Source: Macrostomum lignano | Lineage: Eukaryota | Length of the DNA: 64,000 nt | Reading direction: 5' to 3' | NCBI GenBank assembly: GCA_002269645.1 | Contig: NIVC01002520.1 | Coordinates: forward strand, 1-64,000 | Shown: positions 38,070 through 57,400 of the stretch, piece after piece | Layout: every line of letters begins with the position of its first letter | How positions within the stretch are numbered: position 1 is the stretch's first letter | Notes under the pieces: generated by a model | Database searches by the model: none | What the model was told of the DNA's origin: nothing | The model's input: the letters and a program-made list of their open reading frames with translations, nothing else | Position numbers and translations under genes: made by a program

Positions 38070-38143
38070 TTATAACCGCATGTGCCAATCTGCTGTAAAG
38101 CAAACGCCATTTCTTCCAGATTTTTGTCTTTGTATTTGACGAT

Positions 38144-38277
38144 AGTAGTAGGGGAAATGTGGACTCTGCCGCAGGAATTTCCGTGGGAAAACCACGGGCC
38201 TATGTGTGTAAACATAGCGCCTATGTAAATGCATTGGTGGACTCTGCCGCAGGGAAAGCCACGGAATTTCCATGGGG
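38144..38277 (+). repeat. Maverick left TIR
   Basis: Matches the reverse complement of 52908-53041 at 131 of 134 nt. Confidence 0.97.
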
Positions 38278-39138: not shown

Positions 39139-39148
39139 ATATAAGGAC
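39139..39148 (+). promoter_or_regulatory. TATA-like ATATAAGGAC upstream of the leftmost Maverick ORF
   Basis: 102 nt before ATG 39250; an identical 10-mer sits at the other end of the element. Confidence 0.4.
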
Positions 39149-39249
39149 TGAAAAATTCTACTGAGCCATTAAAATATATTTTGTTGAGATTTAAACGGAC
39201 TTCGAAATTTCAAATTTTCACAAAAAACCCCTTGATTAAATTTTAAACC

Positions 39250-40250
39250 ATGAGCCATTCTCGGTGCCCATCCTACGTTCATGAGGTGTGTGTCACCTGC
39301 AATATTAGTATGCTCGGTGGACTAAAGCACCATGTAGCGAATGAAGGCTGCAGTGTCACCCGATGGCTACTATGCCATGAATGCCAGTCCGTTGAGCTCT
39401 TCACCGTTAGAGGCCAAATCAAAAGGCATAAAAATCATTCGACTGTTAATTGGAGCTCTGCTGAAGACCGCGAGCAGGCACGCATTACTGCTCTGGAAGT
39501 TGCACGTCAAGAGGAACGCAACAGGGCGGCAGAACGCATTCGAGAGCCGGTGAGCACTTTGAGTCAAGTTATCACGAGCTTATGCGGCCGAGTAACGAAC
39601 ACTGGTGACCAGCCCAACGCCCAGCCTGCTGCTGCTTCTGCTGCTCTACTCGACGGTGATGTCGGAGCTCCCCTGCTTGATGCTGCTGATGGAGGTGGCA
39701 CCCCTGACTTCGAGCTGAATGAGCTGGACACCGCTTTCTTCGAGAACCTCGATGGTGAGCCTGAAGCACAGGAGCAGCAAGAAATGCAACAGCAGCAGCA
39801 GCGGCGTGCAATCCCTGTTCCCGAAAAAATATGGAGCGTGCCAGGATGCTGGCAGAAGTCAGCCTGTCCGACGTGATTCGCGATATGGACTCAGGCCCTG
39901 CGCCTCCACCACCACCACCACCGACTGAGGTTCAGCCTGCGGCCGAAGTCAGCCTGTCTGACCTGATTCGCGATATGGACTCAGGCCCTGCGCCTCCACC
40001 ACCACCACCACGGACTGAGGTTCAGCCTGCGGCCGAAGTCAGCCTGTCTGACCTGATTCGCGATATGGACTCAGGCCCTGCGCCTGCACCACCGCCACCA
40101 CCGACTGAGGTTCAGCCTGCGGCCGCTAATGAAGTGCAGCAGCCAGCACCTCTCTGCATCCAGCTGGTTCTGCCCAACAGTGTTACGGGTGAATATTGGA
40201 TTGACTTGGGAGGGGCTTTCCGTATTCGCCTGAGCAATTCTCAATTCTAA
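39250..40250 (+). CDS. Maverick accessory protein of unknown function (~333 aa): Cys/His-rich N-terminus, coiled coil, 3 x 30-aa repeats
   Basis: ORFs 39250-39876 and 39831-40250 join if one A is added to the A6 run at 39824-39829. Confidence 0.65.
39855..40124 (+). repeat. 3 x 90-bp coding tandem repeat (EVSLSDLIRDMDSGPAPPPPPPPTEVQPAA)
   Basis: Units start at 39855, 39945 and 40035. Confidence 0.95.
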
Positions 40251-40864
40251 ACTAATGATTCTAATGTACCAGTCGTTAAATATTAAATTAGCAAACATTC
40301 TGTGTTGAATTAAATTGCGAGATGATTATCTGTATATTGCAAAAGTGAATAATATTTATTTTTCTTTTCAACATCTCATTGCTATTTTTAAAGTTCATAT
40401 TTATGCAGGCAGTGCGCGTTGATCAAGCTGTGCTTGGGTGTGAATGCAGATTGGGTTTGATTCTGGTTGGGTTTGCAATCTCCTTCTTTAACTTGTGCTT
40501 CTAATAATGTAGCGTATCATTGCTTTTTTAAAATATAAATTTTAAAGCGCAATGAAGCGCTGAATTTTGGAAAAGTTTGCAGCTTTGAGTTATTTTGAAA
40601 TATTTTTAGAATTCGTTTTATAAGACCCTTTTATTAAACCCTTTTATTAGACCCTTTATTAGACCCCGAAATTTGACACGTAACGACAAGACCCGAAGTA
40701 CAACTTTCGAAAATATGTACACTTAATACGAGCGTATATCCACAAATTAGGGATTTAAATTTACTTTTGCAAGAAAAAATAATTTCACAAATATGTATTT
40801 CAGCAAATTTCCTCATCTAATTCTCATCGAAAATGCTCTAAGCCGTGTCATCAACCGAACCGAG

Positions 40865-43800
40865 ATGGCTTCTTCGAGAGACACTTCATCATCATCATCA
40901 GCAAGTGATCGGCCGCTTGAGTCTACCAATTTTGCTATCGAAATCGAACCAACCAGTGAGTCAATCCAATGTGATTAGTAAAGCCAGTAAAGTAGACTCT
41001 TCCCTCTATAAGTACAAGAAAAAGTAGTCATAAAACCCGATTCCTGATTCGCCGATTCACCGATTCCCGATTCACGGATTCACCGATTCCCGATTCACCG
41101 ATTCACCGATTCACCGATTCACTGATTCCCGATTCACCGATTCACTGATTCCCGATTCACCGATTCACCGATTCCCGATTCACCGATTCACCGATTCACT
41201 GATTCCCGATTCCTGATTCACTGATTAGCGATTCACCGATTCCCGATTCACGGATTCACCGATTCCCGATTCACCGATTCACCGATTCACCGATTCACTG
41301 ATTCCCGATTCACCGATTCACTGATTCCCGATTCACCGATTCACTGATTCCCGATTCACCGATTCACCGATTCACTGATTCCCGATTCCTGATTCACTGA
41401 TTAGCGATTCACCGATTCCCGATTCGCCGATTCCCGATTCACTGATTCCCGATTAACCAATTCCCGCACCATAATGAGGTGGAATTAGGAATATGATTTA
41501 TAAATTTTAACTGTCGAGTGAAACGCGTACATCCAACAACATGCTAATTCATGCAGGCATTCAATTCAGCTCGGCTATTCACGCTAGTGCGCATGATGAC
41601 ACGCTGCAGGTCAGACGCTTCACTCCAGCATCAAGAGATCTCGAGCCATTTCATTTTTTATCATCAACGAAGTTTGCAGTGCTACAGGCTGTTGAGATGA
41701 GATTCGATTCATCCGAGAATAATTCTATTCGAGCGCAGCTCAAGTTCAACATCAGAATGGTGAGAATCAAGGAAGCTGCGGTAATCAATGCAGAAGATAA
41801 GTGGATCGCATGCGGTCTTGAGCTTCTCTCTGATCTAAGAGATTTTGAATTGTGGTGGTTGCAGCAGTTTTCTGAGTTGGAACGCAAGATTGATGCCTAC
41901 AATTCAAATGGGAGCGGTTGGATAGTTGAGCAAATCAACTATTTTGATCTGTGCTCTGCCCTCACTGATCGCATTCGCTACTATCGTGGACGATGCGCGA
42001 ATTTTACTTTGCCCAATCAGCTGGCGGTTAAGAAGGCCATAATCAACCCACCGAGCGATGGAAACAATTGCTTTCTGTTTGCCTGTCTCGCTTACCTGCA
42101 CATCAGAGATCCTGGTGTGATGAAGTCTTGCCATCGACTAACAACTTACAGCAGATGGTTGGATGAAATCGATCTGAGCGGCATCGCACTACCAGTCGCA
42201 ATTTCCGATTTAGACGTTATAGAGGAAAATAATTCCGAAATCTGTTTCACAGTTTTTAGCTGGGAAGATGATGAGGCCTATGTCATTCGCCAGCCTCTTC
42301 CTGGGATTTGTGCCTCTCGCAAGGTTATTCCTCTACTCTTGCTTCGCAACTCCAGCACCGATGATGCTGATGATGATGGTGGTGGTGATGAGAATTGTGG
42401 GACTGGACACTGGTGTGCAGTTTCGAACCTGGACCGGCTCCTGAACAGCAAAAAAGGTCTGAGGAATCGCAAATGGTGTGAGAAGTGCATTTCTCCGTTT
42501 CGATCCCAGGAAGAGTTGGAGCAGCATCGAGACAGCTGCAATCCTCAACTGAAACCAGCCATTATGGAGCGCATGCCTGATGCAAGTAGCAACACAATGC
42601 AGTTCATGGCTTGGGAAAAGACAATCAGTCCCCCATTTGTTGTCTACGCAGATTTTGAAGCTCTGAACACCCCACGTGAACCAGTGGAGTCTGAAAGAGA
42701 AGTTACTGTCACCAAGTTAACTGAGCATGTACCTGTAGCTGCTGGCTACATTGTTATTCCAAGAGAGGGTATGAGCAGCAAAATTCTGAGGCCGAGTGAG
42801 GATGTTTTCCTCTGCAGCGGACCCAATCCGAATTCTGTCGTGAAACAGTTTTTGGCCTCACTCGAACGTCTTGCTCGTGAAGTTTATGGTTGGAATACCG
42901 AGTTTAGTCATCAGATTGCTGACAGAAACAGAGATGACAACAGGCGCAGCTTTCAAGATGCCCCACAGTGCTATTTATGCAATGCAGTGTTTATTTCATC
43001 TTCTGACAAGCACTGGGATCACGACCACCTCAGCGGTGAATACAAGGGTGCTGCCTGCGCTTCGTGTAACAAGCTTGCTCGGCTAAAACGGCGATTTTTG
43101 CCAATAGTTTTCCACAATCTTCGCGGATATGACCTGCATTTGATTTTCTCAACTGCGCTGGGTGACATGACTGGTTGGAGGGTGAGCGTCATCCCCCAAA
43201 CTGCCGAGTCGTACCTCTCCATGAGGGTCGAGTTCCAGATTGATGAGTATGAGAAAGATGGCGTAAAAAAGCCCCTGTTTTTCACGCTACAATTCATCGA
43301 CTCACTGCAATTCCTACACAGCAGTCTATCTCAACTTATTAAGAACTTGCCGGAGGACAACTGTCCCATCACTAATGCGATGCGATCAAAGTATCCAAAT
43401 CTTTCAAGCGATGTACTGTTTAGTAAGGGAGTTTTCCCTTATGATTATCTCTCGAATTTGAATGTGCTTGATGATCGCCAACTACCAAAAGTAGAAAGCT
43501 TTTTTAACCGACTCACCAACAGCCACTGTACCGAGGCGGAGTATCGGCATGCGCAGAAGGCCTGGACTGAATTCGAATCTACAACATTGCGCGATTACAT
43601 GCTCTGCTACTTGGAGCTGGACATCAGGCAACTAGCAGATATCTTTGAGGGTTTCGAAGGCTGAGTTTGCAGGAAGACAAGCTAGATCCGGTGCATTTTG
43701 TGTCAACTCCAGGCCTATCATTCGCTTCTGCACTAAAGTCTTCTCAAGTCAAGATCGAACTGCTAACTGACCTCGAGATGTATAAAATGTTTGAAAAGGA

Positions 43801-45294
43801 ATTCGGGGTGGAATGTCTTTTGTCAATGTACATCATGTCCAGAGCGAAAGTAGCGATGATGATAATGAACCAGCAGGTAGGAGTTTACTGGCTGTTGATG
43901 CTAATAATCTTTACGGTCATGCGCTCACAATGCCCCTACCTGTTGGTGGCTTTCGCTGGCTCAGTCAAGAGGAGCTCTGCTCATGGTCCGAGTGCCGCTT
44001 TCTTTCCCTGGATGATGACGCTCCAATCGGCTACCTTGTCGAAGCGGATTTGCTCTACCCAGCCGAAATCCACACGGCAACGGAGGATCTTCCATTCGCC
44101 CCAGAGAAAAGGTGTCCGAATTTTGAAGAATTTCCGCAGTACATGCGAGAATTATGGGTACTGCTTCAACATGACAATGATCATTCTCAGCATCATCAGC
44201 AGCAGCAGCCCGACGCGAACACGACTGAGAATCCTACCGTTGCGCGCTACCGTGGAGTACAAAAATTAATGCTCACATGCCACAACAAGTTTTCCTATGT
44301 ACTGCACTCGTCTGCTCTCCGATTCTATCTATCGCACGGAATGAAGTTGCATGGGCTCCACAGGATGATCGAATTCAGGCAAGAACCTGTCTTCGCGGAC
44401 TACATTAAGATGAATAGCGAGAAGCGCTCTATGGCGAAAAATGATTTCGAGAAGGATTTCTATAAACTGAAAAATAACTCCCTGTTTGGCAAAACAATGG
44501 AGAACGTGCGCAAGCGGCGGGACATCAGAGTGTGCAGTGACAAGAAAAAAGCCAAGACTGTTTCTTCTCAACCAAATGTCGCATCATTCACAATCATTAC
44601 GCCGTCACTCAGCATCTTTGAGCTTCAAAAGCGCGAAGTAACTCTTGATCGCCAATTTTCATGGGGCAGTGTGTTCTAGATCGCTCCAAGATCATCATGT
44701 ATCGACTTTACTATGACAAAATAAAACCCATGCTAGAATTCCGTGATGGAGCAAGAGTTCGAGTTTGCGGTGGCGATACAGACTCGTTGTTTTTGAGCTT
44801 AGAGAACCTTAGTTTGCAGAGAGAAGTGCTGCCAATCCTGCATGCCGAAGGCCTCTTGGACACCTCCAATTTTCACTAATCATCCTCTCTTCTCGAATCG
44901 GCTAAAGGCCAAGCTAGGCTGCATTAAAGATGAAGCTGGTGGACTGCAACAGATTGAGTGGGTGCTGCTAAGGCCCAAGCTCTATTCTTTCCTCGCTGAA
45001 AGCTCGGCGGCATGCAAAGCAAAAGCAAAAGGCATCCAACGAAGCGTGCTGAAGAATGAAGTCTCCCACGACGACTACGTCAAGATTTTCAAGGGGGCTT
45101 CAAAGCTGTCGCTCACTGTTCGTCGAATTGGAAGTGAGAAACATCGCGTTTTCACCATTGAGCAACGTAAGCTCGCTCTCAGTATCTGGGAGGACAAGCG
45201 AGCGTGGACTGGCTCGAATTCAAGTCTTCCGTTCGGCCACTTTCAGCTGTTAATCAGGGGTAGTCCGAAAAGGACAGCGGACTGCTTAGAGTGA
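40865..45294 (+). CDS. polB: Protein-primed family B DNA polymerase (pPolB); putative 5' exon 40865-40955, main exon 41557-45294; four frameshifts
   Basis: GSGW and KKAIIN..D.NCF N-terminal region, ExoI YADFE, endonuclease-VII-like CYLC...HWDHDHLSGEYKGAACASCN, ExoII FHNLRGYD, KGVFPYDY, DANNLYG, KLKNNSLFGKTMEN, GDTDS, KLYS, KAKGI. Frame breaks at about 43653, 43795, 44652 and 44874. Confidence 0.93.
41036..41460. repeat. Tandem array of 7/8-bp GATTC-core units (GATTCCC / GATTCACC / GATTCACT)
   Basis: Read directly; a higher-order duplication of about 176 bp is marked by TTAGCG at 41225 and 41401. Confidence 0.95.
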
Positions 45295-45386
45295 TGCTTT
45301 GCACATCTGTGTAACCTTGGCGTTGAAATTTATTGACTTTTACTTATGTACTCCATGAATTGTTTCAGTGGTTTAATTAATCTGAA

Positions 45387-45465
45387 TGATGATGATGATG
45401 ATAATGATGGATGATGATGATAATGATGGATGATGATGATAATGATGGATGATGATGATAATGAC
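45387..45465. repeat. (GAT)n-type repeat in the convergent spacer of the Maverick
   Basis: GATGATGATGATAATGATG units. Confidence 0.85.
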
Positions 45466-46049
45466 AATGCTGGAACGAATAGAGCCAATTCAGTTAGTTA
45501 CATATTTGTAGTCTCTAAGCAACTAACTGAACGTAACATTTTCGAGTTGAGTTGTTCCAGATTTATTTCAATACGAACTTGTGAAAGCCATGTTGGAATA
45601 ATTTGCGGCATATTGGTCTGGCTTTCCCCTTTTTTATTATCCTTGAATTTTTGCACAATTGAATGAACTGAGTTACTGTCCTTTTTTATCTTTGCTAGCT
45701 TTGCTACTCATATTTTTTGTAACCATTATCCAATGATTATCTGAAAAATATTGGCTTCCTTTTTCATTTCTGCTAGTTCTTGTTCGTTTTTATTTGTCTT
45801 AGCAGTGCATAATCTGAGTGATGGGTGTGCTTTTTTTCTTGAGTTGGTTGTGGTCTGATTAAATTTTCTATACTCAAACTAATATTGCGATTTCAGTTAT
45901 GAAAATAAAGAAAAAGTCGATCGAAGTCTGATTTTCAGGTATATTGATTAAAATGCACGCATCTTAATACGTGGTATATGCATGCAAGATTATTATATTT
46001 TTGTTCAGCTGTCGTCTTTTTATTTAATTGTTGAAACATATGGTTATTA

Positions 46050-46613
46050 TTAGCACAGAAAACGGACAAGCAAGGAAAAGTCGGAAATTAGCATGCTCAT
46101 TGTTTTTGCACCACTGAGAACGAATGAGCCATTGTGAAAAAGCAGGCATTTGCAGAAGCTTAGTTTGCAGATTAAAGCAGAAAATGATTCTGGCTCATAT
46201 TGAGCATTTGGTAAAGTGTTCACAAGATTAGCGAGGGGAAGTGCTCTGCACAAGTCAATTTTCCCATGCGCAGTAATAGTTTTAATCCGCACATGCACAG
46301 TTTGATGAGGCAGCAGTTGAGCAGGCACTCTGCGATGCAGCATAGCCACGAAGCGACGAGCGGCCCTGACTGAGGCCGAGTAGCTCCGGGCGCCACAGAT
46401 ACTCAGTTGTCCAGTCGGATAGAGCAATAGAGTCACTCTGGGACTCCGCATCCTCTTGATAAGCACTCGGGGCCAGACGGGGCGATAGATGACATGAGCC
46501 ATGCTGAGAGCCAGTTCCCGCAGAGGCAACTGGGCACCCCTGTCTCCAGCAAGTCTCAGATCCACGCCGCCGACCAGATTGGTCACTCGCAGGGCTGTCG
46601 CAGGTGTACTCAT
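46050..46613 (-). CDS. TATA-binding-protein (TBP/TFIID)-like protein encoded by the Maverick (187 aa)
   Basis: Two TBP repeats: LRVTNLVGGVDL...YRPVWPRVLIKRMRSPRVTLLLYPTGQLSICGARS and IKTITAHGKI...QYEPESFSALICKL...LLFHNGSFVLSGAK. AATAAA at 46018-46023 (minus strand) follows the stop. Confidence 0.85.
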   Translation of the reverse strand: MSTPATALRVTNLVGGVDLRLAGDRGAQLPLRELALSMAHVIYRPVWPRVLIKRMRSPRVTLLLYPTGQLSICGARSYSASVRAARRFVAMLHRRVPAQLLPHQTVHVRIKTITAHGKIDLCRALPLANLVNTLPNAQYEPESFSALICKLSFCKCLLFHNGSFVLSGAKTMSMLISDFSLLVRFLC

Positions 46614-46630
46614 TTAGAGAGTCCTTTCTG

Positions 46631-47127
46631 TCAGTGGTGCTGTCTTTGCGAGCTTTTGAGTGGTGCGGGCACACCTCGCTTCTTAAGTTGATACAGAACT
46701 TCGGTTTCAGCCAGTTGTAGTACAGTAATACATTTTTCACTGCACAACCAGTATCAGATGCTTGAATCAAAGGTGATCCCAGATCCTCTAGGTTGTACAC
46801 CTGTCTGCCAAGCAGCTCAGTCAGAAAGATGGACTTTTTCACCCCGCTTGTCCAGGTGGGACCGTAAGCAATGTTTAGAATGTCATTAGCCAAATGCATG
46901 TACGGTCGGGATCCATCTGTCCACTTGAAATGATGCAAATTCTTTGAGAGCTTTCTGTAATGTACTTGCATCTCAGGTGAGATTCTGTCCCATGAGAACG
47001 GAGAGGCGTACACGTGATGAGTGATATGGTAACTGCCAGCCCGGACTTGGGCAATGGCCAGCTCCTTCACAACGAAATCTCTGCTCGATCTCTCGCGTGG
47101 GAAGCCTTGGAAGTCAATATAGTTCAT
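46631..47127 (-). CDS. Maverick DxQGF...KELA protein, predicted 3'-5' exonuclease-like fold
   Basis: MNYIDFQGF...VVKELA...HHFKWTDG...VYNLEDLG...CAVKNV pattern. As assembled the ORF runs to 46282; the end given assumes one missing base. Confidence 0.55.
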
Positions 47128-47139
47128 GATCGGATGGTT

Positions 47140-47862
47140 TCAAGACGCAAGATGTCGGGAAGCCGACTCAGTTCCCCTTCTTAAATAGTTTTTTTTCCTG
47201 CTCAGGTGTAGCCAGGCTCTCCCACTCCCGAATCCCTTAACTGTATGATGTGCAGGGGTGGCCTCTGGAGAAACAGCCGGTTTAGAAATTAGCTGCCTTA
47301 CTGACTTTCCTATAGCCGAAGCTGGGATGTTAAGCTTTTTGTCTTGAAGCAATGAGACAAACTCACTCCAGCCTACCGGCTCGCTGGCACATTTCGAATC
47401 CCTCACCGCACTGTGAAACAAATCCAGGATGTTTGAGGAGGGTATTGTCTTCCCAGAAATTTGCGCCTCGCCATTTTCGGACACCTGAATCAGAGAGGGA
47501 TTGCCAGATAGGATGGCCCATAGACTGCGGGCTCTCGCTTTAAACTTCTGCGGCACGGATTGGGTGATCTTTTCCCCCCAGCTGCTTGGTGCAATATCTG
47601 TTTTCAGCATCTTTGCATCACTCGCAGGTACCGCACCATCCTTTCCAGTCCGCTTGCGCTTGACCAGCAAACTCTTCATCGCATCATGGTACATGGCAGC
47701 TTTCACATCGTCTGGGCAATCCTCGGCAAGCAAAATATCATTGCATTTCCTCTGCGCATATCTCACAGCAGTGTCCATTTCAGACTCGACTGGCTTCAAA
47801 TTCTGTGTGAGCATGTCGTACTCTGACTTGGGGATCAGAACCATTTCTGAGAACTTATTCAT
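47140..47862 (-). CDS. Conserved Maverick protein (PW-like), 240 aa
   Basis: EMVLIP, VPQKFKARARSL, GE..ISGKTIPSSNILDL, EPVGWSEF...NIPASAIG pattern typical of this Maverick family. Confidence 0.75.
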   Translation of the reverse strand: MNKFSEMVLIPKSEYDMLTQNLKPVESEMDTAVRYAQRKCNDILLAEDCPDDVKAAMYHDAMKSLLVKRKRTGKDGAVPASDAKMLKTDIAPSSWGEKITQSVPQKFKARARSLWAILSGNPSLIQVSENGEAQISGKTIPSSNILDLFHSAVRDSKCASEPVGWSEFVSLLQDKKLNIPASAIGKSVRQLISKPAVSPEATPAHHTVKGFGSGRAWLHLSRKKNYLRRGTESASRHLAS

Positions 47863-48172
47863 TTTGCTTCTTTTTCTTCACTAGCTTTATTAGAATGTAG
47901 AGAATTTTGATAAAACCCGTATTTAGCAGATCCGCAGTTCTTCTATGTGTAGAAATTTTGCGGATTATTTGCTTTTGCTTCACCAGCGCTGCCTTTTCAG
48001 TGAGTGAGAACGACAAAGTGTTTTGCAATAGGTTGTAGCAGGCCTCAATGAGAAATTCACGTACGGCTTTTGGACCCGCTCTGATCAACAGACGTTTAAA
48101 GCTGATGGAATATTTCGGTGACGCGAGAACATCAAACAAACTTTCATGTGAGTCGAATGTTTCCATTATCAT
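47855..48172 (-). CDS. Small conserved Maverick basic/amphipathic protein (105 aa)
   Basis: LLIRA...FLIEACYNLL...KQKQIIRKI pattern; overlaps the next start by 8 nt. Confidence 0.65.
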   Translation of the reverse strand: MIMETFDSHESLFDVLASPKYSISFKRLLIRAGPKAVREFLIEACYNLLQNTLSFSLTEKAALVKQKQIIRKISTHRRTADLLNTGFIKILYILIKLVKKKKQNE

Positions 48173-48219
48173 TAGTGTTGCAGAATATAGAGCAAATGGC
48201 GAAATCTCGGCTGTTATTC

Positions 48220-48873
48220 TTAAGTGTAAACAAGGTGGGGTCGCTGATTGGGCAGGATTCGAGCCCGGACGCGCAGCTCATCAGGGGTGGAAGGGTGAAA
48301 ATCCAGGAGCAGGTAGGCTCCCCTGCCGTGCGATGTCACGTGCTTGAACACTGACAGCAGAAATCCGGGCTTCTCAGCAAAGCACTGCCTGCCCAGCGCT
48401 GCAATCTGCAGCTGGTCTCTGGGGTTCTTCATGATCACAAAGTACATCGCATTCAGACTCATTGTTCGCAACTCCTTCCCTTTAAAAAATACATTTTGGG
48501 TGAGCATAACCAGAAAGCAGGGCAAATGATGGGCAATTCCAGTGAAAACATTTCGCATTGCAGCAGAATTGGAAGTTTCTTCAATCAGGTCATCAAATAC
48601 AACCAGGTCATTGGGTCTCAGTGCGGTCTCGATACTGCTGGGAAATCCCTGCTGCAGGTGCACGCCGAGACTGCTGAGCTCAGAGTGTGCTGCTTGTGAA
48701 ATCCCGTAGTACCACAGAACTCTCCCAGGCTTCACATCAAACATTACATCCTTGTATTGTATCAGATGTTTCACGAAGGTTGTCTTTCCTGCATTTGTAG
48801 GCCCGCTGACAATCATGCAGCTTCCCTGTCGCAGGCGCACATCATAACAGTTTATCCGCTCACGTGTTTCCAT
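48220..48873 (-). CDS. FtsK/A32-like DNA packaging ATPase (217 aa)
   Basis: Walker A GPTNAGKT, Walker B LVVFDD, LTQN, PRD..QI..LGRQ, YLLLDF; uninterrupted. Confidence 0.93.
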   Translation of the reverse strand: METRERINCYDVRLRQGSCMIVSGPTNAGKTTFVKHLIQYKDVMFDVKPGRVLWYYGISQAAHSELSSLGVHLQQGFPSSIETALRPNDLVVFDDLIEETSNSAAMRNVFTGIAHHLPCFLVMLTQNVFFKGKELRTMSLNAMYFVIMKNPRDQLQIAALGRQCFAEKPGFLLSVFKHVTSHGRGAYLLLDFHPSTPDELRVRARILPNQRPHLVYT

Positions 48874-48899
48874 TGCCTGTTGAGCTAAATTCTTGATTT

Positions 48900-49424
48900 T
48901 TAAAATCTAATTAAATTTCTTTTTCTTAAGCAACTCTCAAACCTTTGCAGCATTCTCTCATTCAAGTGGCTCTGCTGATTTGCATGGAGGTGCCGCAGAA
49001 CCCACTCAAACGAGCGCTTGAAACGAAACTTTTGATAGGCAAACAAGAGACAGAACAAACCGCATTTAGCAGAGTCACAGCTCTGAATTCGATTCACATT
49101 GCTACGTAAGTAGAATGGAGAATACCAAAAGGATTTCAGTGCTCTGTGAATGATCTCTAAAGTGCTGGAGTCCCAGCCCAGAGAGTTAAAGAGTTCTATG
49201 GAATTCTCCTTATCAGCATAACAAACCACCCAGTGACCGAAGGATGAGCTGTACTGAAGCAGAAAGAAAATAAACTTACATCGAGATAAATTTCTTTTGA
49301 GAGTTGCTCGCTGAATAAAGTTTAAAGCATAAGATGTTTTATTTATTGAATTCAAGACAATAATTAAACAGTTATTTTGTGGCAAAAAGCTTTTAGCCAG
49401 TTGAGGCAGTTGAAAAGCATCCAT
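48900..49424 (-). CDS. Adenain-like (C5) maturation cysteine protease (174 aa)
   Basis: GHWV, FNSLG (usually F/YDSxG), IQSCDSAKCGLFC. Confidence 0.88.
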   Translation of the reverse strand: MDAFQLPQLAKSFLPQNNCLIIVLNSINKTSYALNFIQRATLKRNLSRCKFIFFLLQYSSSFGHWVVCYADKENSIELFNSLGWDSSTLEIIHRALKSFWYSPFYLRSNVNRIQSCDSAKCGLFCLLFAYQKFRFKRSFEWVLRHLHANQQSHLNERMLQRFESCLRKRNLIRF

Positions 49425-49447
49425 ATTAGCGTTGCGCCAGCGTACTC

Positions 49448-49588
49448 CTAGGATGGAAAATCTAACAGAATCTCCCTGTGCTTGGTGACCTCAATCAGTG
49501 AGTCATACAGGCACATAACAATCAGAGATACAGGCTCCTCCAGGGCCTGTCGGAAGCGAATCTCCAGCCGCAAATTGCCCTCCTTCTG
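49448..49588 (-). pseudogene. Major capsid protein (double jelly-roll/hexon) C-terminal remnant, 46 codons
   Basis: A frame not in the ORF track reads QKEGNLRLEIRFRQALEEPVSLIVMCLYDSLIEVTKHREILLDFPS*, matching the Maverick MCP end pattern G.LRLE..F..AL...V..IV......IE....R....D. The stop lies 24 nt before the protease ATG. Confidence 0.85.
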
Positions 49589-49919
49589 TCCTAGACCTCC
49601 CTTTCTTAGGTTTATTTCGCCCTGACTGGCTTCTTTTCGGTGATTTCTCCGTCTTACTCTTTTTCTTCTTTTTTGTCTGCTTCTTACTGCCCTGTTTGAC
49701 TAGTCGCTGCTTTGGTCTGTTTCTATTGCTTCTGCTGTTGCTGCTGCTACCGCTGGCGGTGGTATGGGCTGGCTTTGATAGCGATATTGACTTTGTGGAA
49801 GCTTCTGGAGGAGGCTGGTAAGTCATGATTCCTGGAAAACTCCCACAGCCATAGAGCGCCGGCTTTTGGCTTCCTGCCAGAGTCCCTGAATACTGACGAA
49901 TCAGCTGTTGGTAGTTCAT
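49503..49919 (-). CDS. Basic core-like (pVII-like) protein, 3' end truncated/fused at the deletion
   Basis: Y...Q...LYGCG N-terminus containing an adenain consensus (L)xGx-G, then a Lys/Arg-rich tract. The ATG overlaps the minor capsid TGA (ATGA). The last ~30 codons are MCP sequence read out of frame. Confidence 0.6.
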   Translation of the reverse strand: MNYQQLIRQYSGTLAGSQKPALYGCGSFPGIMTYQPPPEASTKSISLSKPAHTTASGSSSNSRSNRNRPKQRLVKQGSKKQTKKKKKSKTEKSPKRSQSGRNKPKKGRSRTEGGQFAAGDSLPTGPGGACISDCYVPV

Positions 49920-50743
49920 TGTATTAGCCTTTCCCGAATATGAACTGTGAGCAGAACAGGGCTGCTGCTCCGAGCAGTCAGTGAGTAGCCAAAGATGTCA
50001 CGCAGTTGAAATCTAATGCCATGTAGAAAATTAGCTTTCTGAATCGGGAAGAAAATTGCTTTCTTAAACACTTTGCTCATGTAGCTGCCCCATTCGACAT
50101 CGGATGACATGCTCACAGTTCGCAGCACGGAGTTCCAGTTACAGTTTGTTCGCTCCACAATGCTGCAGTGCAAGTTGATCAGGTTGGTGGGCGGACAACC
50201 GATGCAGCAGAGTGACACTTGCCGTCCGGGTGGGATCTTCACAGGCTGGTTTCCGAATCCCAGCCACTGCAGAATTTTACTTGATGGAAGGAACAATTCT
50301 GCTCGAGCCGTGTTGTTGAGCACTACCGTTCTCAACTCTTGGATTTCAAACTTTATGCCAATATCTTTAGCGCTGCTCCGCCCCATTAAACCGGACTCAT
50401 CAGCTTCCATTTCAGACTCCCTTTCGCTCATTGCATCGAAGAACAGTGACTCAGAGTTGGCCAGCAGCTCATTCAGGCGTTCCACCAGTTCCTCCACTCT
50501 AGCAAAGCGTCCGGGTTGAAGAACCAGGGCCTCATGCTCTCTTCCATCTGAGACAGTGAAGCAGTAAGGCTCGTCAACATTGAACCATGCAGCAGGCAGA
50601 TGGATTTCAGCCAGACCTGCCTCATAGTCCACATTTCGATCCAAGTAAATAGATGAAGGCAGGTGAAAATGAAAGTCACTAGGAGTACCTTCAGCATTTT
50701 CGCTACAAATGATGATGCTTCTCATAGTTGGGAATGGCTGCAC
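49916..50743 (-). CDS. Minor capsid protein (penton, single jelly-roll; 275 aa)
   Basis: F.FHLPSSIYL...YEAGLAEIHLPAAWFN and C-terminal FFPI...IRFQLRDIFG...VLLTVHIR. Confidence 0.85.
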   Translation of the reverse strand: MQPFPTMRSIIICSENAEGTPSDFHFHLPSSIYLDRNVDYEAGLAEIHLPAAWFNVDEPYCFTVSDGREHEALVLQPGRFARVEELVERLNELLANSESLFFDAMSERESEMEADESGLMGRSSAKDIGIKFEIQELRTVVLNNTARAELFLPSSKILQWLGFGNQPVKIPPGRQVSLCCIGCPPTNLINLHCSIVERTNCNWNSVLRTVSMSSDVEWGSYMSKVFKKAIFFPIQKANFLHGIRFQLRDIFGYSLTARSSSPVLLTVHIRERLIQ

Positions 50744-50755
50744 AATGTCGGTATC

Positions 50756-51823
50756 TTACACTTTTCTTAAGTCCTTCTCATCCACCCAGTCAGTGGACTT
50801 GTAGCCGGCCCACTTGACGAGATATCGGATCTTACCCTTCCGCTTCTCAGTCTTCAGAACCTTCTCGATTACATACAGCCGCTGCGAGTCCGGAACAGCT
50901 TGCAGCTCATGCTCGTGGAAGAGGCCTCTTATGTCTTCCCCCTTCATGTCTCGAATCCTGTACATGTAGGGATAATGCTTTGGTGCCCTAGACACTATGG
51001 TGTACACCTCTTCGCTCCAGTTCGCCTTGTATCCCTTCCTGAAGAGTCTGGGTGCATTGGAAATCCGCACTGATTGGTTTTCACAGAACTTCGGTTTTCT
51101 CAGTTTCTCAACTGTCTCAATCGCTTTCCCATCATAAAGGTTCATCCACACTTCAGTCTCGTTTGCTTTGCTGACATTCATTGGTGTAGTCTTGATGCTT
51201 CTGTGGAAAGTATTGTTATAGGACTTGACCAGTTTAGGCAGCACATCAAGCCATTGTAGAGTGCTGTTGTGAGTAAAGTAACGCCACATCTTGCTTTTTA
51301 AAGTTCGATTCCATCTTTCAATTATGGCTTCTTTGTGCTCACTGCTAGTTGGAAACGCCAGAATCCCCCGGTCTATGCAGAACTGGCGAAAAATTGCGTT
51401 GACAAACTCCTTTCCCTGATCTGTGCGGACAGTGCGCGGCTGCCGCTTTGAGCTCTTCAGCATGCTCTCAAACGCAGATTTCACTTCTGCCGCGCTCTTA
51501 GACTTCAGTGCTCTGGCCATTGCAAATTTAGACAAAACATCAATGCAGGTGAGAATGTATTTATGCCCGCGATTATACTTTGCAAATGGAATCATTTCCA
51601 CCAGATCCATCTCCCACTGATCATCAATGGCTCTTACTATTATTGGCGCCCTTGGAAATCGTACTCTAGCTGGCTTATGCAGAGTGTGTACTGGCTGCTG
51701 ACTTAGCCACTGCTCAATGCTCTTGACTCCAATATGCTCGCCTCTTTTTCGCAGTTCAGGTTGCAGTTTTGAAGAACTGCAATAGCTCGCTGGCTGGTTT
51801 GGATTGAAATAAATTTTTTCCAT
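50756..51823 (-). CDS. int: Retroviral-like (rve) integrase with C-terminal chromodomain (355 aa)
   Basis: KIYFNP..PASY, DDQWEMDL (D1), RTDQGKEF (D2), IIERWNRTLK (E), chromodomain YVIEKVL...YLVKWAGY..DWV; intact from ATG 51823. Confidence 0.95.
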   Translation of the reverse strand: MEKIYFNPNQPASYCSSSKLQPELRKRGEHIGVKSIEQWLSQQPVHTLHKPARVRFPRAPIIVRAIDDQWEMDLVEMIPFAKYNRGHKYILTCIDVLSKFAMARALKSKSAAEVKSAFESMLKSSKRQPRTVRTDQGKEFVNAIFRQFCIDRGILAFPTSSEHKEAIIERWNRTLKSKMWRYFTHNSTLQWLDVLPKLVKSYNNTFHRSIKTTPMNVSKANETEVWMNLYDGKAIETVEKLRKPKFCENQSVRISNAPRLFRKGYKANWSEEVYTIVSRAPKHYPYMYRIRDMKGEDIRGLFHEHELQAVPDSQRLYVIEKVLKTEKRKGKIRYLVKWAGYKSTDWVDEKDLRKV

Positions 51824-51992
51824 TTTCGGAAACAAAGAAACATTTTTATTTTTAGGTTTTCTTAAGACATTGAAAATGCATAGCGCATGTGAAAGCAAGC
51901 ATATATATTTTTTTTCAAACAAAGAGATGGAAAGCAGGTCTGGATAAATAGCTCGTAGCACAGAGTTTGTCTCAATGTCAGAGGGTCTGCAA

Positions 51993-52757
51993 TCAGTCGA
52001 AGCACGGCCTGGGCAGCTTCATGGCATCCAATCTGCGCAGAGCGAATGGCGGCTGCTTGCGTTTCCTGGCGTTCTCAGCGGCGGCTGCTTGAGCTCGGAA
52101 CTGGTACCAGACTGGGTCCTCTTGCAGATCAGTGTCCTGCCGAGGAATCGCTCCAGCTGCAGGCTTGGTCAGTTGCAGAGGCGTTGAAGTGGCAAACGCT
52201 GTGTCGATTTGCAGATTGGATGGCATGCCTGCCTCGCCAGCAGCAGCAGCAGCATCGTCCTCCGCCTTCACTACCGGCTTGGTCTCTTCCGCGTTTTCGC
52301 CAGCATCGTCTTCATTTTCGATGCTGTCGGAGGAAGATCCCGACTCCAGCTCGTATGCATCGGAAATCTCACGTGGAGCCGATAGCTGCTCGTCGATCCA
52401 ATCCGCGTACTGCCACAGCTTTCGCCACAGCGGCGGTGTCAGCGGCACGGTGTTCCGCTTAAGAAACTCGTCGCAGCAGTCCTCCGGCAATCGCTTTAAC
52501 CAGATAATGCCGTTTTTCACTTCGATGAACTTATCGAAGCCGAGTTTGACAACCTTTGGCTGTTTGTCCAAGGCCGCCTTGACAAGCGATCGCTTCAACT
52601 CCTTGAGCTTCTCCCACTGACGGATGTTCAAATTGAAGCCGGGGACTCCAGGTTTCAAACTCGCAGTGCTGCCATGTCGGTAAAATTTTCTGATAGCAAT
52701 GAACATAACTCCTTCATACTCCTGTATTTGGAGTTTATATCCTTCGCCGATGTCCAT
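51993..52757 (-). CDS. PC4/Sub1-like ssDNA-binding / coactivator protein with two tandem PC4 domains and an acidic low-complexity tail (254 aa)
   Basis: Domain 1 DIGEGYKLQIQEYEGVMFIAIRKFY...KPGVPGFNLNIRQWEKLKE matches the PC4 pattern; domain 2 KLGFDKFIEV...VPLTPPLWRKL...WIDEQL is a diverged repeat. Confidence 0.78.
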   Translation of the reverse strand: MDIGEGYKLQIQEYEGVMFIAIRKFYRHGSTASLKPGVPGFNLNIRQWEKLKELKRSLVKAALDKQPKVVKLGFDKFIEVKNGIIWLKRLPEDCCDEFLKRNTVPLTPPLWRKLWQYADWIDEQLSAPREISDAYELESGSSSDSIENEDDAGENAEETKPVVKAEDDAAAAAGEAGMPSNLQIDTAFATSTPLQLTKPAAGAIPRQDTDLQEDPVWYQFRAQAAAAENARKRKQPPFALRRLDAMKLPRPCFD

Positions 52758-52832
52758 GACTTAAACTCTAACAGAAAAAAAAATCTCGTTGAAAAAAAAT
52801 TCGATTTTTCATGAATCAAAGAGATTTTTTTG

Positions 52833-52887
52833 GTCCTTATATAGACTAAACCACTGCAGCAGACATACAGCAATAGAAAAACATTGG
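52833..52887 (-). promoter_or_regulatory. CCAAT plus TATA-like ATATAAGGAC upstream of the PC4-like ORF
   Basis: CCAAT at 52883-52887, (T)ATATAAGGAC at 52833-52843, 76 nt before ATG 52757, next to the right TIR. Confidence 0.45.
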
Positions 52888-52907
52888 CCTATGTTCTCTC
52901 ACTAAGG

Positions 52908-53041
52908 CCCCATGGAATTTCCATGGCTTTCCCTGCGGCAGAGTCCACCAATGCATTTACATAGGTGCTATGTTTACACACATAGGCCCGTGGTTTTCCC
53001 ACGGAAATTCCTGCGGCAGAGTCCACATTTCCCCTACTACT
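52908..53041 (-). repeat. Maverick right TIR
   Basis: Matches the left TIR at 131 of 134 nt. Confidence 0.97.
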
Positions 53042-53874
53042 GACGATTTACTTTGAAAGTCAAACAAAAGATTGACAGCTGGATGAGAATTATAATGGGG
53101 TAATGCTGTCTATCCGCAAAGCTTTGCAGGAAATCACAGGCGACTTTTCTTTCACTTTTTAGCAGTGTGATGACAATGTTTGCCTTGACATGACGGGAAT
53201 AAGTTTTTTTCGAGCAAACTTGCGAGAAATTTGTTTGGCTTTGCTAGAATCACGTAGAGGTGACATATGTTTTTGCATAGAGATGGCGTAGCTTTTTGGG
53301 CGACTACCATCATATTATACCAGCCGTTAAGGTTGTTAACGAGAAGCGAAGTTTAATATAACGATTTGTTTACGGCTGTAGCACCCCAACAACTATACTT
53401 TGTCAACACGGCTACTGCTACTGGTACTGGTGCTGGAGCCCTAAAGACGCCATTGTTACCATCCAATACGGAATTCACATCGGGATGAAATATGTCGTAG
53501 TAAGAAAGTACGCTTTGGACACCCTGGACCCAGGACAACTGGGTACCCTGGACACCAATAATAACAACAAAATACGTTGTCAGCCAGTCACAAGCGTATT
53601 AAGAGAGGCAAAGACAATGTCACAGGGCGCGTTTCAGGGCCTGGGCGCGAACATAGGCCGCACCGCTGGCAGTATCCGGGGCGTCAGCATCAGCATTGTT
53701 CCGCAGTGGCGAAATTGACACATGTTAACCAATAGACTAATTGATAGACTAAATTGACCAATTAGCACCAGTGGACACCGGATGTTCACAGATTCACTAT
53801 CCTAGTTATCACAAATGTCCACCGCAAGCCATTTTGAATGGGTTGACGCTTAAATTAGCTCGTACAATGGTATT

Positions 53875-54152
53875 AATAACAATTATTATTAATAATTAAT
53901 TATTGATTATACCTGCTCCGATTGGGCCAGGTGTGCAACCGACAGCTCAGCCGCAGCTATTGCGCGGCGCATCTGAAGGCTGCCGTCAATTACCCCAGCT
54001 AATATAATGCTGGCACCCATTTTACAGCTGGGTGAACTGAAGCAATGCAGAGTTAAGTGTCTTGCTCAAGGACACCAATTTTTCCAGTGGGATCGGAAAC
54101 CGAACCCCCGATCTTCAAGTCTTGAGTCCGACGCTTTAACCACTAGGCTAAA
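53875..54152 (-). mobile_element. CORE-SINE copy with internal deletion
   Basis: Reverse complement of the 34491 copy, lacking about 70 nt of the middle; (AAT)n tail. Confidence 0.85.
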
Positions 54153-54446
54153 AATGCTAATAAGTTTACCGACTTAACACGCAGCTTACTTAACTACTCT
54201 AAAATATTATCTTCTTAGTAAGGTACTCTTTTCTACGATCTTTCTTGTTAAAAAAGAAAAAAGTTAAGAATGCCTTTAGTATTTTTCACTATTCGAAGAA
54301 AATGCTTAAAGTTCAATAAGCCGAGTACGGTAGACAATCGGGCTGATTGGAATTAATGATGTATTTAATTTTTATTAAATTTTCGCTCAAATCAACGCAA
54401 ATGATAACCATTATAACTAGAGGTCTACCGCATCATAAAACTACTT

Positions 54447-57400
54447 TTAAGAAGCTGCCACGGCTTTGCTTGACGCTGATTTTCTAGGCCGACTGGTTCC
54501 GACAGTCTTTTTCCGACCTGCAATACGAGCAAAAAACTAGCATGTTAGGCGGAATAGAAATATGAGAGGTGAGATCAGACTTTAACAGCTATGACTCGTG
54601 TGTTATCCACTGTTGACATCATTTTAATTTTGGTTCTCTTGGTTTGGCTAAGATGTACAAAACAGAGACTGCGATTAAGTTTTCCTGCCTACGCTTGTAA
54701 GATATCAACAGCCCCCATTTTGAGCCGTGGCATCTCAGCAACTCCCCAATACGGCATCTCAGCAACTCCCCAAGACGGCATCTCAGCAACTCCCCATTGA
54801 GCCATAGCAAAATCCAAAACAACCGCATGCATCTAGCAAACAAGGGGTCTCCCATTGCTTCTAGTTCAGATAGACATGTACGGCAAGAACAATAAGCACT
54901 CACCAGTCATGGGCACCAACTGATCCAACGAGTAAGCCACCCGTAGTTTGTCCTCGCCAGCAAGCTTGGCAGATCCACGCAACAGTTGAATCCGCGCAGC
55001 CGAAGCGGCAGTCGCCGTCTCAAAGTTAATTAACGCCAAACGACCATCTGAGGCCATACTAAGGCGTTTTGCTTTCAATCCATTATCGGCTAGAAACTTT
55101 AGCAGAGTGGATTTCTTTGTGCCCTGCAGTAAGTTGGCTACAATCAGTCTGGATTTCGTTCCACTCCGTTGCATTTCGCTATCATTTGATGAAGCCACCT
55201 TCCGGTGCCCGTAGGTCACCGTGGGCCAGTCGGGGTCCTCGGCAGCGGCTGGCCAAGCGGCCAAATCTGCTGCGCAAGCGGCTTCGGTCTCGTAGGCGGC
55301 CACGGCAACACCGGAGCCGCGACGCTCCAATTTGGTGCAGCGGGGCAGGGCGAGCAGCAGGCGGGAGTCGGTCATGGCTTTGTTGACGCCTGTCAGCACC
55401 AGGGTGCGCCTGTCAACCTGTGTCGGGAATGACATTGTGGGCGGCAGGTTTTATAAAATTACTGAAAGCTCATAAAGAATTGTATATGGGGTTGTAGCCT
55501 AGTGGTCACGACTTGAAGGTCGGGGGTTCGTTTCCCGATCCTACTCGGAACAATTTGTGTCCTTGAGCAAGACACTTAACTCTGCATTGCTTTAGTTCAC
55601 CCCAGCTGTAAAATGGGTGCCAGCATTAGCTGGGGTAATTGAGGCTGTGTGTGGCGACCCCCCCCCCCTCCCAGTCCTTGGACTGTACAGCCGTGCACAG
55701 CCTTCAGATGCGCCGCGCAATAGCTGCGGCTGAGCTGTCGGTTGCACATCTGCCCAATAAGGCAGGTGTAATCAATTATAATTATTACTATTACTACAAT
55801 ACCTAACGCCAAAACCTGCAGTTCTGAAGCTTTATTTGCAACTTATCTAAATAAGACACAATTGAGACTCTTGAAAACACTTTCTACAAGCAGAAAGTCA
55901 CAGATTGACACAGAGAGTACTTCACAGCCAAATTTAGACACTTGAGCATTAAAATAAGCACTAACCAGATGCTTAGGCTTCGGTTTGCCAGGAATTTTCT
56001 CCAGCATCCACGAAGTCTTGCCGCCGCCAACAACGGCGCCCTGACAGCTGAGCACGGCGTCTAAAGCTTGACGCGCATCGGCAAAGGTGATTACTGCGAC
56101 GTTTGGCGCGTGTCGTCCCCTACTAGCGCCGGCGCCAGCTTCCGGGAAGCGAACTCGCTGAGCGCCCGGGGCCAGCTCCAACAGCTGACTAGCGGCGATG
56201 CGACCCTCCAGAGAGGAGACAACAACGCGGCGAGTATTGTACTGGCTGGCAGATATGGAGTCCGGCTGAACCGGCGGAATTGAGGTCGCGAGTTCGCGCG
56301 CTCCGCCTAGAGCTCGACTGCCCTGTTATTGGGTTTGGTTGAATAAGGCATCCTGAATAGTTAACGCTGGTACTAAGACGTTTCAACTAATAGACAATTC
56401 CTGAGAAAAACTGTATAAAAATACATTAAGAAATTTTCTACTAACAGTAGTATTATTTGACATTTTGACAGACCAATAGCAGGGAAGTGTACTAACTTGT
56501 ACTAAGTCTACTACAAAAACAAGTTCAAGAAACTGTGTGGATTACCAATTATTATTAGCCAAATGAAATGATGGAGCCCAAATGTGAACTGAAGCAATGC
56601 AGGCAGAGATAAGTGTTTTGCTAAAAGATACAATTTTTTATTTATCGTATCTCCATAGTGCTTTCAGGAAATTTCGTTTTTGACGCATGATATATATAGG
56701 GTTTTGCATCGCTTCTTATAGATAAAAAAACTGAAGTTGAAGCTTGAAGTTAGCCAGAAGCTACACAATTCAGTTGAATCCGCACACACACACACACACA
56801 CACTCACGTGCAGAACAGCCGCATGCTTCGCAGCAATCTCTGGATTGGCAAATTCGAGAAAGGCGACACCTTTATGGCGACACCGAGCCCGGTTCCACGG
56901 CAGCCGGGCGGCCACAGCCGACGGGCACAGGGCGTACAGGTCAGCTAGTCGGCAGCGATTCGGTAGCGGTCGAATTCGCACTGTGCTGCGAAGTCGGCGA
57001 GTCACGCAGTCAACAATGGCCTTATCTAGACTCGAATTGTCAACTGACTCAGCTTGATTCGTAGCTGCTGCTGCGGCGACAGGCTGCTATGGAAATCAAT
57101 CGAAATTGAACAGTTTTCAGGCCTTGAATAATGATCGGCTGTCACGAGTGGCTGAGATCGCTCAATATTCTATGGCCTAAACAAGTCCCGCGATCATTGC
57201 GTACCGCTTAGAATTGTCTCAAAGGATTGGCCATAGACAATTTTAGAGCTTGGATAGAAAGACTAAAGGGAAGAGTTAGAGGCTATACGGTCGAACATAA
57301 GGCAGGGCCTTAAGGCAGGTTTTCTAAGGCAGGGCCAGATTATACGCATATTTTATATTTACATGTATGTACGAGTATATCCTCAATTGCCTAGTGTATT

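What the first reader, a model, noticed from the sequence alone, without database searches (positions are those of the whole stretch)
49448..49620. Major capsid gene (and the usual PZ gene) deleted, leaving a hidden 46-codon MCP tail: a capsid-less defective Maverick
Seen: no ORF large enough for an MCP exists in the element, but an unlisted frame at 49448-49588 encodes the typical Maverick MCP C-terminus, abutting the Lys-rich part of the core-like ORF, with the junction near 49590-49620. Integrase, ATPase, protease, minor capsid, TIRs (3 mismatches) and TSD (perfect) are intact. Inference: a young internally deleted derivative, comparable to a defective-interfering or satellite genome, that may still be mobilised or packaged using MCP from a complete helper copy.
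Basis: partly seen in the sequence, partly recalled or inferred. Interest (0 to 1): 0.75.

Follow-up and report, generated by a model that had tools for sequence, protein, structure and literature searches.

The report
Capsid-gene deletion in a Maverick copy
One copy of a virus-like jumping element in an animal genome has lost most of its shell-protein gene in a clean internal deletion while sister copies keep it; this is ordinary decay of a known kind of element, with no sign yet that the shortened copy spreads as a satellite.

Summary
A 14.9-kb Maverick/Polinton (38144-53041; 134-nt TIRs, perfect 6-bp TSD) keeps only the last 47 codons of its major capsid gene. They match residues 381-427 of 427-aa relatives (81-87% identity) whose model is a double jelly-roll capsid; no other capsid piece lies in the window. 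Contigs from three studies leave the window exactly at 49591|49592 and run on into other sequence (capsid-coding where shown), so the break is sharp and undeleted sister copies exist. Corrections: the upstream basic 'core-like' gene is cut too and joins the tail out of frame, so the tail is a passive relic; loss of PZ is unsupported (a PZ candidate sits beside the ATPase by gene order); the polymerase is split in this assembly, possibly through long-read errors. The junction itself was not confirmed in reads (32 of 1,544 pieces shown, none bridging), and contigs running into the deleted part are as deep as their neighbours, which argues against an amplified deleted subfamily. Most likely a real, single or rare deletion derivative (about 0.65); artefact about 0.15; helper-spread satellite about 0.12. 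Capsid-less Polintons are in print. Low interest.

The parts
38138..38143 (.). Left target-site duplication (6 bp)
   Evidence: Identical to 53042-53047
38144..38277 (+). Left terminal inverted repeat, 134 nt, begins AGTAGT
   Evidence: 98% complementary to the right arm, 3 mismatches; terminal 21-mer occurs twice in the window, 0 in 100 shuffles
41541..45294 (+). [quoted passage not shown]
   Evidence: PF03175 hits in two pieces (24.7 bits, below cut-off 25.8; 35.1 bits, above) and PF02945; frames; run contigs differ from the window by small indels in this stretch
46050..46613 (-). TATA-binding-protein-like accessory gene
   Evidence: PF00352 E 4.5e-22; 82% identical over 120 aa to sister-copy gene model P0005
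46282..47127 (-). 281-aa ORF overlapping the TBP gene; N-terminal part looks like a nuclease common in Mavericks (recalled, not tested)
   Evidence: no Pfam or PHROGs hit
47140..47862 (-). 240-aa conserved ORF; candidate PZ by gene order only
   Evidence: 62% identical over 186 aa to P0006; homologues P0052, P0053 at 50% and 46%; atp-pm-pz order from PMC8097293 section 7; no family hit
47855..48172 (-). 105-aa ORF; candidate PM by gene order only
   Evidence: no family hit
48220..48873 (-). Packaging ATPase (P-loop)
   Evidence: Open 217-aa frame with Walker A; only weak P-loop family hits; matches P0005/P0006
48900..49424 (-). Adenovirus-like maturation protease
   Evidence: PF00770 22.2 bits, cut-off 21.3
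49448..49591 (-). Relic of the major capsid gene: last 47 codons and stop
   Evidence: Residues 381-427 of P0003/P0004/P0007, 81-87% identical; P0004 folds as a double jelly roll
49591..49592 (.). Deletion junction, no overlap between the two sides
   Evidence: X1 contig laid 48334-49591 then 399 other letters; X3 and X5 contigs laid from 49592 with 792 and 104 other letters beyond
49503..49919 (-). Basic core-like ORF, cut at codon 110 and ending in 28 out-of-frame codons read from the capsid relic
   Evidence: 51% identical to P0051 over residues 1-109; P0051 goes on for 28 more residues; frame arithmetic
49916..50725 (-). 269-aa ORF, probable minor capsid protein (position after the integrase and recalled motif; not shown)
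   Evidence: searches and fold uninformative
50756..51823 (-). Retroviral-like integrase with C-terminal chromodomain
   Evidence: PF00665 E 2.6e-16; PF00385 E 1e-4, below cut-off
51993..52757 (-). PC4-domain accessory gene
   Evidence: PF02229 26.8 bits, cut-off 25
52908..53041 (-). Right terminal inverted repeat
53042..53047 (.). Right target-site duplication (6 bp)

Best explanation
This is one genuine copy of a recently active Maverick family in which a single internal deletion of at least about 1.2 kb removed the end of the core-like gene, anything between, and the first 380 of about 427 capsid codons. Shown: the break point, the loss, the out-of-frame join, the existence of undeleted sister sequence. 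Inferred: the ends were joined bluntly (no shared letters at the break), as in end-joining repair of a double-strand break, either in place after insertion or during copying of the element. The copy cannot make its own virion; the 47-codon tail is left-over DNA in front of the protease gene and is not made as capsid protein. It keeps both ends and an open integrase, so passive copying or packaging by a sister copy is possible in principle, but nothing shows that it has happened. It is most likely a single or rare dead-end copy.
For: Tail equals residues 381-427 of 427-aa double jelly-roll capsid proteins and nothing else of MCP is in the window. Contigs of three studies leave the window at exactly 49591 or 49592; the 30 loose letters shown for X1 encode, read by hand, the residues just upstream of the tail in P0004. 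The core homologue P0051 stops aligning at the same codon. The two sides do not overlap and share no word longer than 6 letters nearby (32 letters on one side against 109 on the other), so there is no repeat for an assembler to collapse. Substitutions between the window and the run contigs are 18 synonymous of 31 coding sites against 0.27 expected (p 2e-4; 40 of 171 sites were shown, 9 of the 40 fell outside the frames scored), so the window is a distinct copy, not a noisy version of the commonest one. Contigs running into the missing part are as deep as neighbours: X1 38.4 against 22-39, X3 17.7 against 15-18 for adjoining contigs, X5 156 against 153-192, which fits a rare deleted form. Defective copies are the rule: 96% of 3,511 vertebrate loci (PMC8097293).
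Against: No piece that bridges the junction was seen, though only 32 of 1,544 pieces were listed and contigs drop rare variants. The window differs from run contigs by small indels that look like long-read errors, among them those that split the polymerase, so this part of the assembly is imperfect. No whole genome was available to count copies. Contig depth is not a copy number. Zero overlap at the break rests on where the alignments stop; the loose letters on the core side were not among the 24 of 259 shown.
Confidence: 0.65

Rival explanations
1. Assembly artefact: the locus is a full-length Maverick and a chimeric read or a misjoin inside a multi-copy element dropped 1-3 kb.
For: All three listed contigs that reach the junction run on into the undeleted form. 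The same stretch of the assembly shows small indels of the kind long reads make. None of 10 window proteins is in the 15-billion collection as an exact sequence, including the fused core ORF; this is uninformative for the junction because the 9 others are missing as well.
Against: No repeat or overlap at the break, which is what misjoins usually need (general knowledge). The synonymous excess shows a real distinct copy that need not be the one kept in contigs.
Confidence: 0.15
2. Defective-interfering or satellite subfamily: the deletion arose once in a replicating genome, and the capsid-less form has since been copied to several loci or packaged with capsid protein from complete sister copies.
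For: Both TIRs, the TSD, integrase, ATPase and protease frames are kept; undeleted near-identical sequence is present in runs of three studies, so a helper is available; at 14.9 kb the copy lies within the 12.7-24.6 kb range of intact vertebrate Mavericks (PMC8097293).
Against: No depth step between kept and missing parts in three runs (weak measure). The deletion also damages the core-like gene. Only one locus is known. Gene models P0005 and P0006 of sister copies both retain residues upstream of this break, so they do not share the junction.
Confidence: 0.12
3. Capsid-independent transposon lineage: the copy still encodes a working polymerase and integrase (the polymerase breaks being assembly errors) and moves inside the cell without virions.
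For: Small indels between window and run contigs fall in the stretch where the polymerase frames break. Polintons without capsid genes are described (13 of 72 by subtraction, PMC4028283 section 4).
Against: ATPase, protease and probable minor capsid frames are still open and near-identical to sister copies, so there has been no time under a capsid-free regime; no second copy is known.
Confidence: 0.08

Closest known systems
Animal Mavericks/Polintons (polintoviruses, adintoviruses; PMC8097293, PMC8502044)
   Same: AGTAGT...ACTACT ends, TIRs, 6-bp TSD, RVE integrase, family B polymerase, ATPase, adenain-like protease, double jelly-roll MCP family; order integrase - minor capsid - small gene - MCP - protease as in the second module of vertebrate Mavericks.
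   Different: MCP reduced to 47 codons; core-like gene truncated; ATPase block on the same strand as the capsid block; TBP and PC4 accessory genes; host probably a Macrostomum flatworm (closest named relatives P0005, P0006 are M. lignano gene models).
Defective and MCP-less Polintons (PMC4028283 section 4; PMC8097293 section 6)
   Same: Of 72 Polintons, 46 had a full MCP, 13 a split one and, by subtraction, 13 none; 96% of vertebrate loci are defective.
   Different: Nine of the MCP-less elements had also lost protease and ATPase; here both remain, and the break is fresh and mapped to the base.
Truncated endogenous mavirus-like elements of Cafeteria burkhardae (PMC8547959, passages)
   Same: Shortened integrated DNA-virus genomes that are still flanked by TIRs; 3 of 33 resolved elements, one type lacking morphogenesis genes.
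   Different: Virophages of a protist that depend on a giant virus; here an animal Maverick with one internal deletion.
Defective-interfering genomes and non-autonomous deletion derivatives of DNA transposons (recalled, not from a call)
   Same: Ends kept, internal genes lost, helper present in the same host.
   Different: These are defined by amplification at the helper's expense, which was not shown here.

Membership tests
Maverick/Polinton | Terminal inverted repeats with AGT or AG end motif | tested here: met
   134-nt TIRs starting AGTAGT; motif from PMC8097293
Maverick/Polinton | 6-bp target-site duplication | tested here: met
   GACGAT on both sides
Maverick/Polinton | Retroviral-like integrase | tested here: met
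   PF00665 60.2 bits
Maverick/Polinton | Protein-primed family B polymerase | tested here: met
   PF03175 in two pieces; gene split in this assembly
Maverick/Polinton | Adenovirus-like protease | tested here: met
   PF00770 above cut-off
Maverick/Polinton | Packaging ATPase | tested here: inconclusive
   P-loop ORF at the expected place; only weak generic NTPase hits
Maverick/Polinton | Minor capsid protein | tested here: inconclusive
   269-aa ORF at the expected place; no family hit, model pLDDT 31
Maverick/Polinton | Double jelly-roll major capsid gene (at least as a recognisable relic) | tested here: met
   47-codon relic of a 427-aa protein whose model matches PBCV-1 VP54
Intact Maverick (sense of PMC8097293) | All conserved core ORFs whole | tested here: not met
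   MCP 380 of about 427 codons missing, core-like gene cut, polymerase split
Defective-interfering / satellite genome | Deletion derivative of a helper present in the same host | tested here: met
   Undeleted, about 99% identical contigs in runs of three studies; assumes the junction is real
Defective-interfering / satellite genome | Keeps the cis-acting ends | tested here: met
   Both TIRs present; packaging signals are unknown
Defective-interfering / satellite genome | Amplified: the same junction at several loci | tested here: inconclusive
   No genome; no listed bridging piece and no depth step, listing cut
Defective-interfering / satellite genome | Packaged in helper capsids or interferes with the helper | not testable with these tools
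   Needs particle data

The most novel reading that the evidence does not exclude
The capsid-less form is a mobile subfamily: the same junction stands at several insertion sites with their own TSDs, so it was copied after the deletion, either inside the cell by polymerase and integrase alone or in capsids supplied by sister copies. It would be a natural test of whether animal Mavericks need virions to transpose.
Probability: 0.12. Interest if true: 0.55.

Novelty: new member of a known kind. Interest (0 to 1): 0.2.

Why it matters
As it stands it is one broken copy of a known kind of element, useful mainly as a record of a recently active Maverick family in a flatworm-like host and as a warning that surveys which demand an MCP gene (for example the screens in PMC11131425 and 10.1101/2023.08.22.554363, passages) skip such copies. 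It would matter more if the junction recurred at several loci: whether Mavericks spread as virions or as intracellular transposons is open (particles not observed according to the abstract of PMC8097293), and a spreading capsid-less subfamily beside an intact helper would make that testable by counting.

Tried and rejected
No whole genome was held, so copies could not be counted. Pfam finds nothing for the tail or for the full-length relatives P0002-P0004, nor does a PDB sequence search with their profile; identity as MCP rests on the fold. Searches for relatives with DNA context found none: viral contigs 4 protein scans, all empty, metagenome contigs 2 scans, both empty, phage records empty; so the size and content of the missing segment are unknown beyond a lower bound of about 1.2 kb. 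A 30-nt junction pattern has 0 matches in viral contigs, which says little for an animal genome. No RNA holder is on record among the 24 runs listed; nothing follows for expression. In one search no listed piece bridges the junction (32 of 1,544 pieces shown; run X14 shows no listed piece there): absence is not shown. Exact look-up of 10 window proteins found 0 of 10. The fold of the presumed minor capsid failed (pLDDT 31); the Atlas gave only scores below 0.9 for a homologue of the 240-aa ORF. Rejected: an in-frame core-MCP fusion (frames differ by one); the tail as a translated mini-protein (no ATG in its 83-codon frame before residue 25 of the 46); MCP moved elsewhere in the window; P0006 as proof of a second deletion (it joins a basic stretch to MCP residue about 106, but it is a gene model that also skips the protease, so the join may be a predicted intron). 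Paper searches: Macrostomum + Polinton gave 1 unrelated listing; Polinton + nonautonomous + terminal inverted repeats + deletion derivatives gave 0; searches gave no listing whose title or abstract start describes this family; one search timed out. The library lacks most subscription papers and no supplements were read, so Repbase-type descriptions may exist.

Full report
The element. The window holds a Maverick/Polinton at 38144-53041 (14,898 bp): 134-nt TIRs with three mismatches that begin AGTAGT, and the same six letters GACGAT on both flanks. On the minus strand lie a PC4 gene, an RVE integrase, a 269-aa probable minor capsid gene, a basic core-like ORF, the capsid relic, a protease, an ATPase, ORFs of 105, 240 and 281 aa and a TBP-like gene; on the plus strand lies a family B polymerase split over several frames. 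The closest named relatives are two Macrostomum lignano gene models, so the host is probably that flatworm or a relative (inference). No whole genome was held.

The tail is a capsid relic. The 46-aa peptide finds 5 proteins among 15 candidates, including 427-aa P0003 and P0004 at 83% and 80%, and 44 representatives at E<=0.001. tblastn of full-length relatives on the window gives a single significant match that starts at 49591 with residue 381 of 427, so 47 codons remain and 380 are gone, with no other piece in 64 kb. Pfam and a PDB sequence profile do not know the family, but the AlphaFold model of P0004 on a 21-sequence alignment (pLDDT 79, pTM 0.82) matches PBCV-1 VP54, Sputnik, mavirus and iridovirus capsids (best E 2e-16, TM about 0.58) and MELD-virus, adomavirus and virophage proteins. 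The same match to VP54 defined the Polinton MCP in PMC4028283 (section 4 read).

The break. Of 24 runs listed, 20 in 8 studies hold the stretch, at best 80% of its words. I laid 4 runs, one per study, on 41480-53400. In X1 a 1,658-letter contig fits 48334-49591 and goes on for 399 other letters; the 30 shown encode, read by hand, the residues just upstream of the tail in P0004. In X3 a 1,720-letter contig and in X5 a 792-letter contig fit from 49592 upward and go on for 792 and 104 other letters, which were not shown. The two sides meet at 49591|49592 without overlap, and no shared word longer than 6 letters was found nearby. The core-like ORF agrees: it aligns with its one homologue P0051 (51%) up to residue 109, the junction lies in codon 110, and P0051 continues for 28 residues. 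So the core-like gene is cut as well. It reads across the junction in a frame shifted by one from the capsid frame and stops at 49503; the capsid frame has no ATG before residue 25 of the peptide. The tail is therefore a passive relic. The loss is at least about 1.2 kb (1,140 capsid letters plus about 84 of the core gene); what else lay between is unknown.

PZ. In vertebrate Mavericks PZ lies behind the ATPase with pm between, and the gene between minor and major capsid is PW (PMC8097293 section 7 read). The window has ATPase, a 105-aa and a 240-aa ORF in that order, and the 240-aa ORF is conserved in sister copies. I could not test it against a PZ profile (searches gave no family). The claim that PZ is deleted is thus unsupported; whether a PW- or GasderminX-type gene (PMC8502044, passages) was lost is open.

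Real or artefact. No listed piece bridges the junction, but only 32 of 1,544 pieces and 24 of 259 loose ends were shown and contigs drop rare variants, so this is neither support nor refutation. For a real copy: the window differs from the contigs by substitutions that are mostly synonymous (18 of 31 coding sites against 0.27 expected, p 2e-4; 40 of 171 sites shown, the best supported, 9 of them outside the frames scored, two in one codon), so it is a distinct member of the family that contigs may have dropped; and the break has no repeat for a misjoin. Against: 12 of 26 indel rows were shown, four of them in the polymerase stretch, each a change in length of a one-letter run, the pattern of long-read consensus error (general knowledge). 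Two of these four lie in runs of four letters, which cover 7% of the region, the other two in runs of one or two, which is weak. The assembly here is probably imperfect, and the polymerase may be whole in the animal. I put a real junction at about 0.85.

Dead end or satellite. If a deleted subfamily were common, contigs that enter the missing part should be shallower than those in the kept part, or stop at the fork. They are not: X1 38.4 against 22-39, X3 17.7 against 15-18 for adjoining contigs, X5 156 against 153-192 (the tool warns that depth is no copy number). Gene models P0005 and P0006 keep residues upstream of the break and so do not share it. The perfect TSD and near-perfect TIRs date the insertion as recent but cannot tell whether the deletion came before or after it. 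Helper-dependent spread is possible from the anatomy (ends, integrase, undeleted sisters) and has no positive evidence.

Mechanism. Shown: one internal deletion with a sharp, overlap-free break that removes most of MCP and the end of the core-like gene. Inferred: blunt end-joining after a double-strand break, in the chromosome or in a replicating copy; no virion from this copy alone; at most passive use of sister copies' proteins. Confidence 0.65 for a single or rare real derivative, 0.15 artefact, 0.12 helper-spread subfamily, 0.08 capsid-free transposon lineage.

Known or new. Defective Mavericks are the rule (96% of 3,511 vertebrate loci; PMC8097293 section 6 and passages). Of 72 Polintons 46 had a whole MCP, 13 a split one and by subtraction 13 none, nine of which also lacked protease and ATPase (PMC4028283). 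Truncated elements with TIRs are described among endogenous virophages (PMC8547959, passages), and loss of the capsid module gave plasmids and transpovirons (PMC11161782, passages). Passages of 10.1101/2022.07.12.499685, 10.1101/2023.08.22.554363, PMC11131425, PMC12166617 and 10.1101/2025.02.07.637071 showed no mobile MCP-less Maverick subfamily, and searches found no paper on this family or on such derivatives in the held library; no supplements were read. Earlier AI notes of this scan describe other gene-depleted Mavericks (unchecked). Verdict: new member of a known kind, interest 0.2.

Noticed in passing
window 46050-46613 (-): The Maverick carries a two-repeat TATA-binding-protein-like gene (PF00352 E 4.5e-22), conserved in sister copies (82%). 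TBP is named in a figure legend on adinto-like viruses in PMC8502044 and in two earlier AI notes.
   Followed up: partly
window 41541-45294 (+): The polymerase is split over several frames; run contigs differ from the window by small indels in one-letter runs in this stretch, so the breaks may be assembly errors. It carries an endonuclease VII-like insert (PF02945).
   Followed up: partly
window 37308-38069 (-): The element sits 74 bp upstream of the ATG of a 253-aa host ORF that looks like a C-type-lectin-type protein by eye (recalled motif; no Pfam hit at E 0.001), so the insertion may affect its promoter.
   Followed up: no
window 38628-38683: A third, 80% alike copy of part of the TIR lies about 350 bp inside the left TIR (I10); the TIR itself has an internal repeat (I14, I16).
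   Followed up: no
window 39851-40125 and 41037-41463: A 90-bp repeat in 3.1 copies inside a proline-rich accessory ORF, and a 427-bp array of 7-8-bp units just upstream of the polymerase gene.
   Followed up: no
window 52909-52944: Loose ends in runs X5 and X14 show related ends that leave this TIR and finish in an ACT-type terminal motif, pointing to sister subfamilies with other TIRs.
   Followed up: no
protein P0006: This Macrostomum gene model joins a basic core-like stretch directly to MCP residue about 106; it may be a predicted intron or an independent deletion in a sister subfamily. No DNA was available.
   Followed up: partly
window 18675-23138 (-): A strongly strand-skewed retroelement with a reverse transcriptase (PF00078 E 1.4e-15), in three ORFs.
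   Followed up: no
window 3793-7325 (+): Exons of a host CFAP47/CFAP65-like ciliary gene.
   Followed up: no
window 24058-24326, 34492-34764, 53925-54153, 55547-55784: Four copies of a short dispersed repeat (SINE-like by size; not tested) in both orientations.
   Followed up: no
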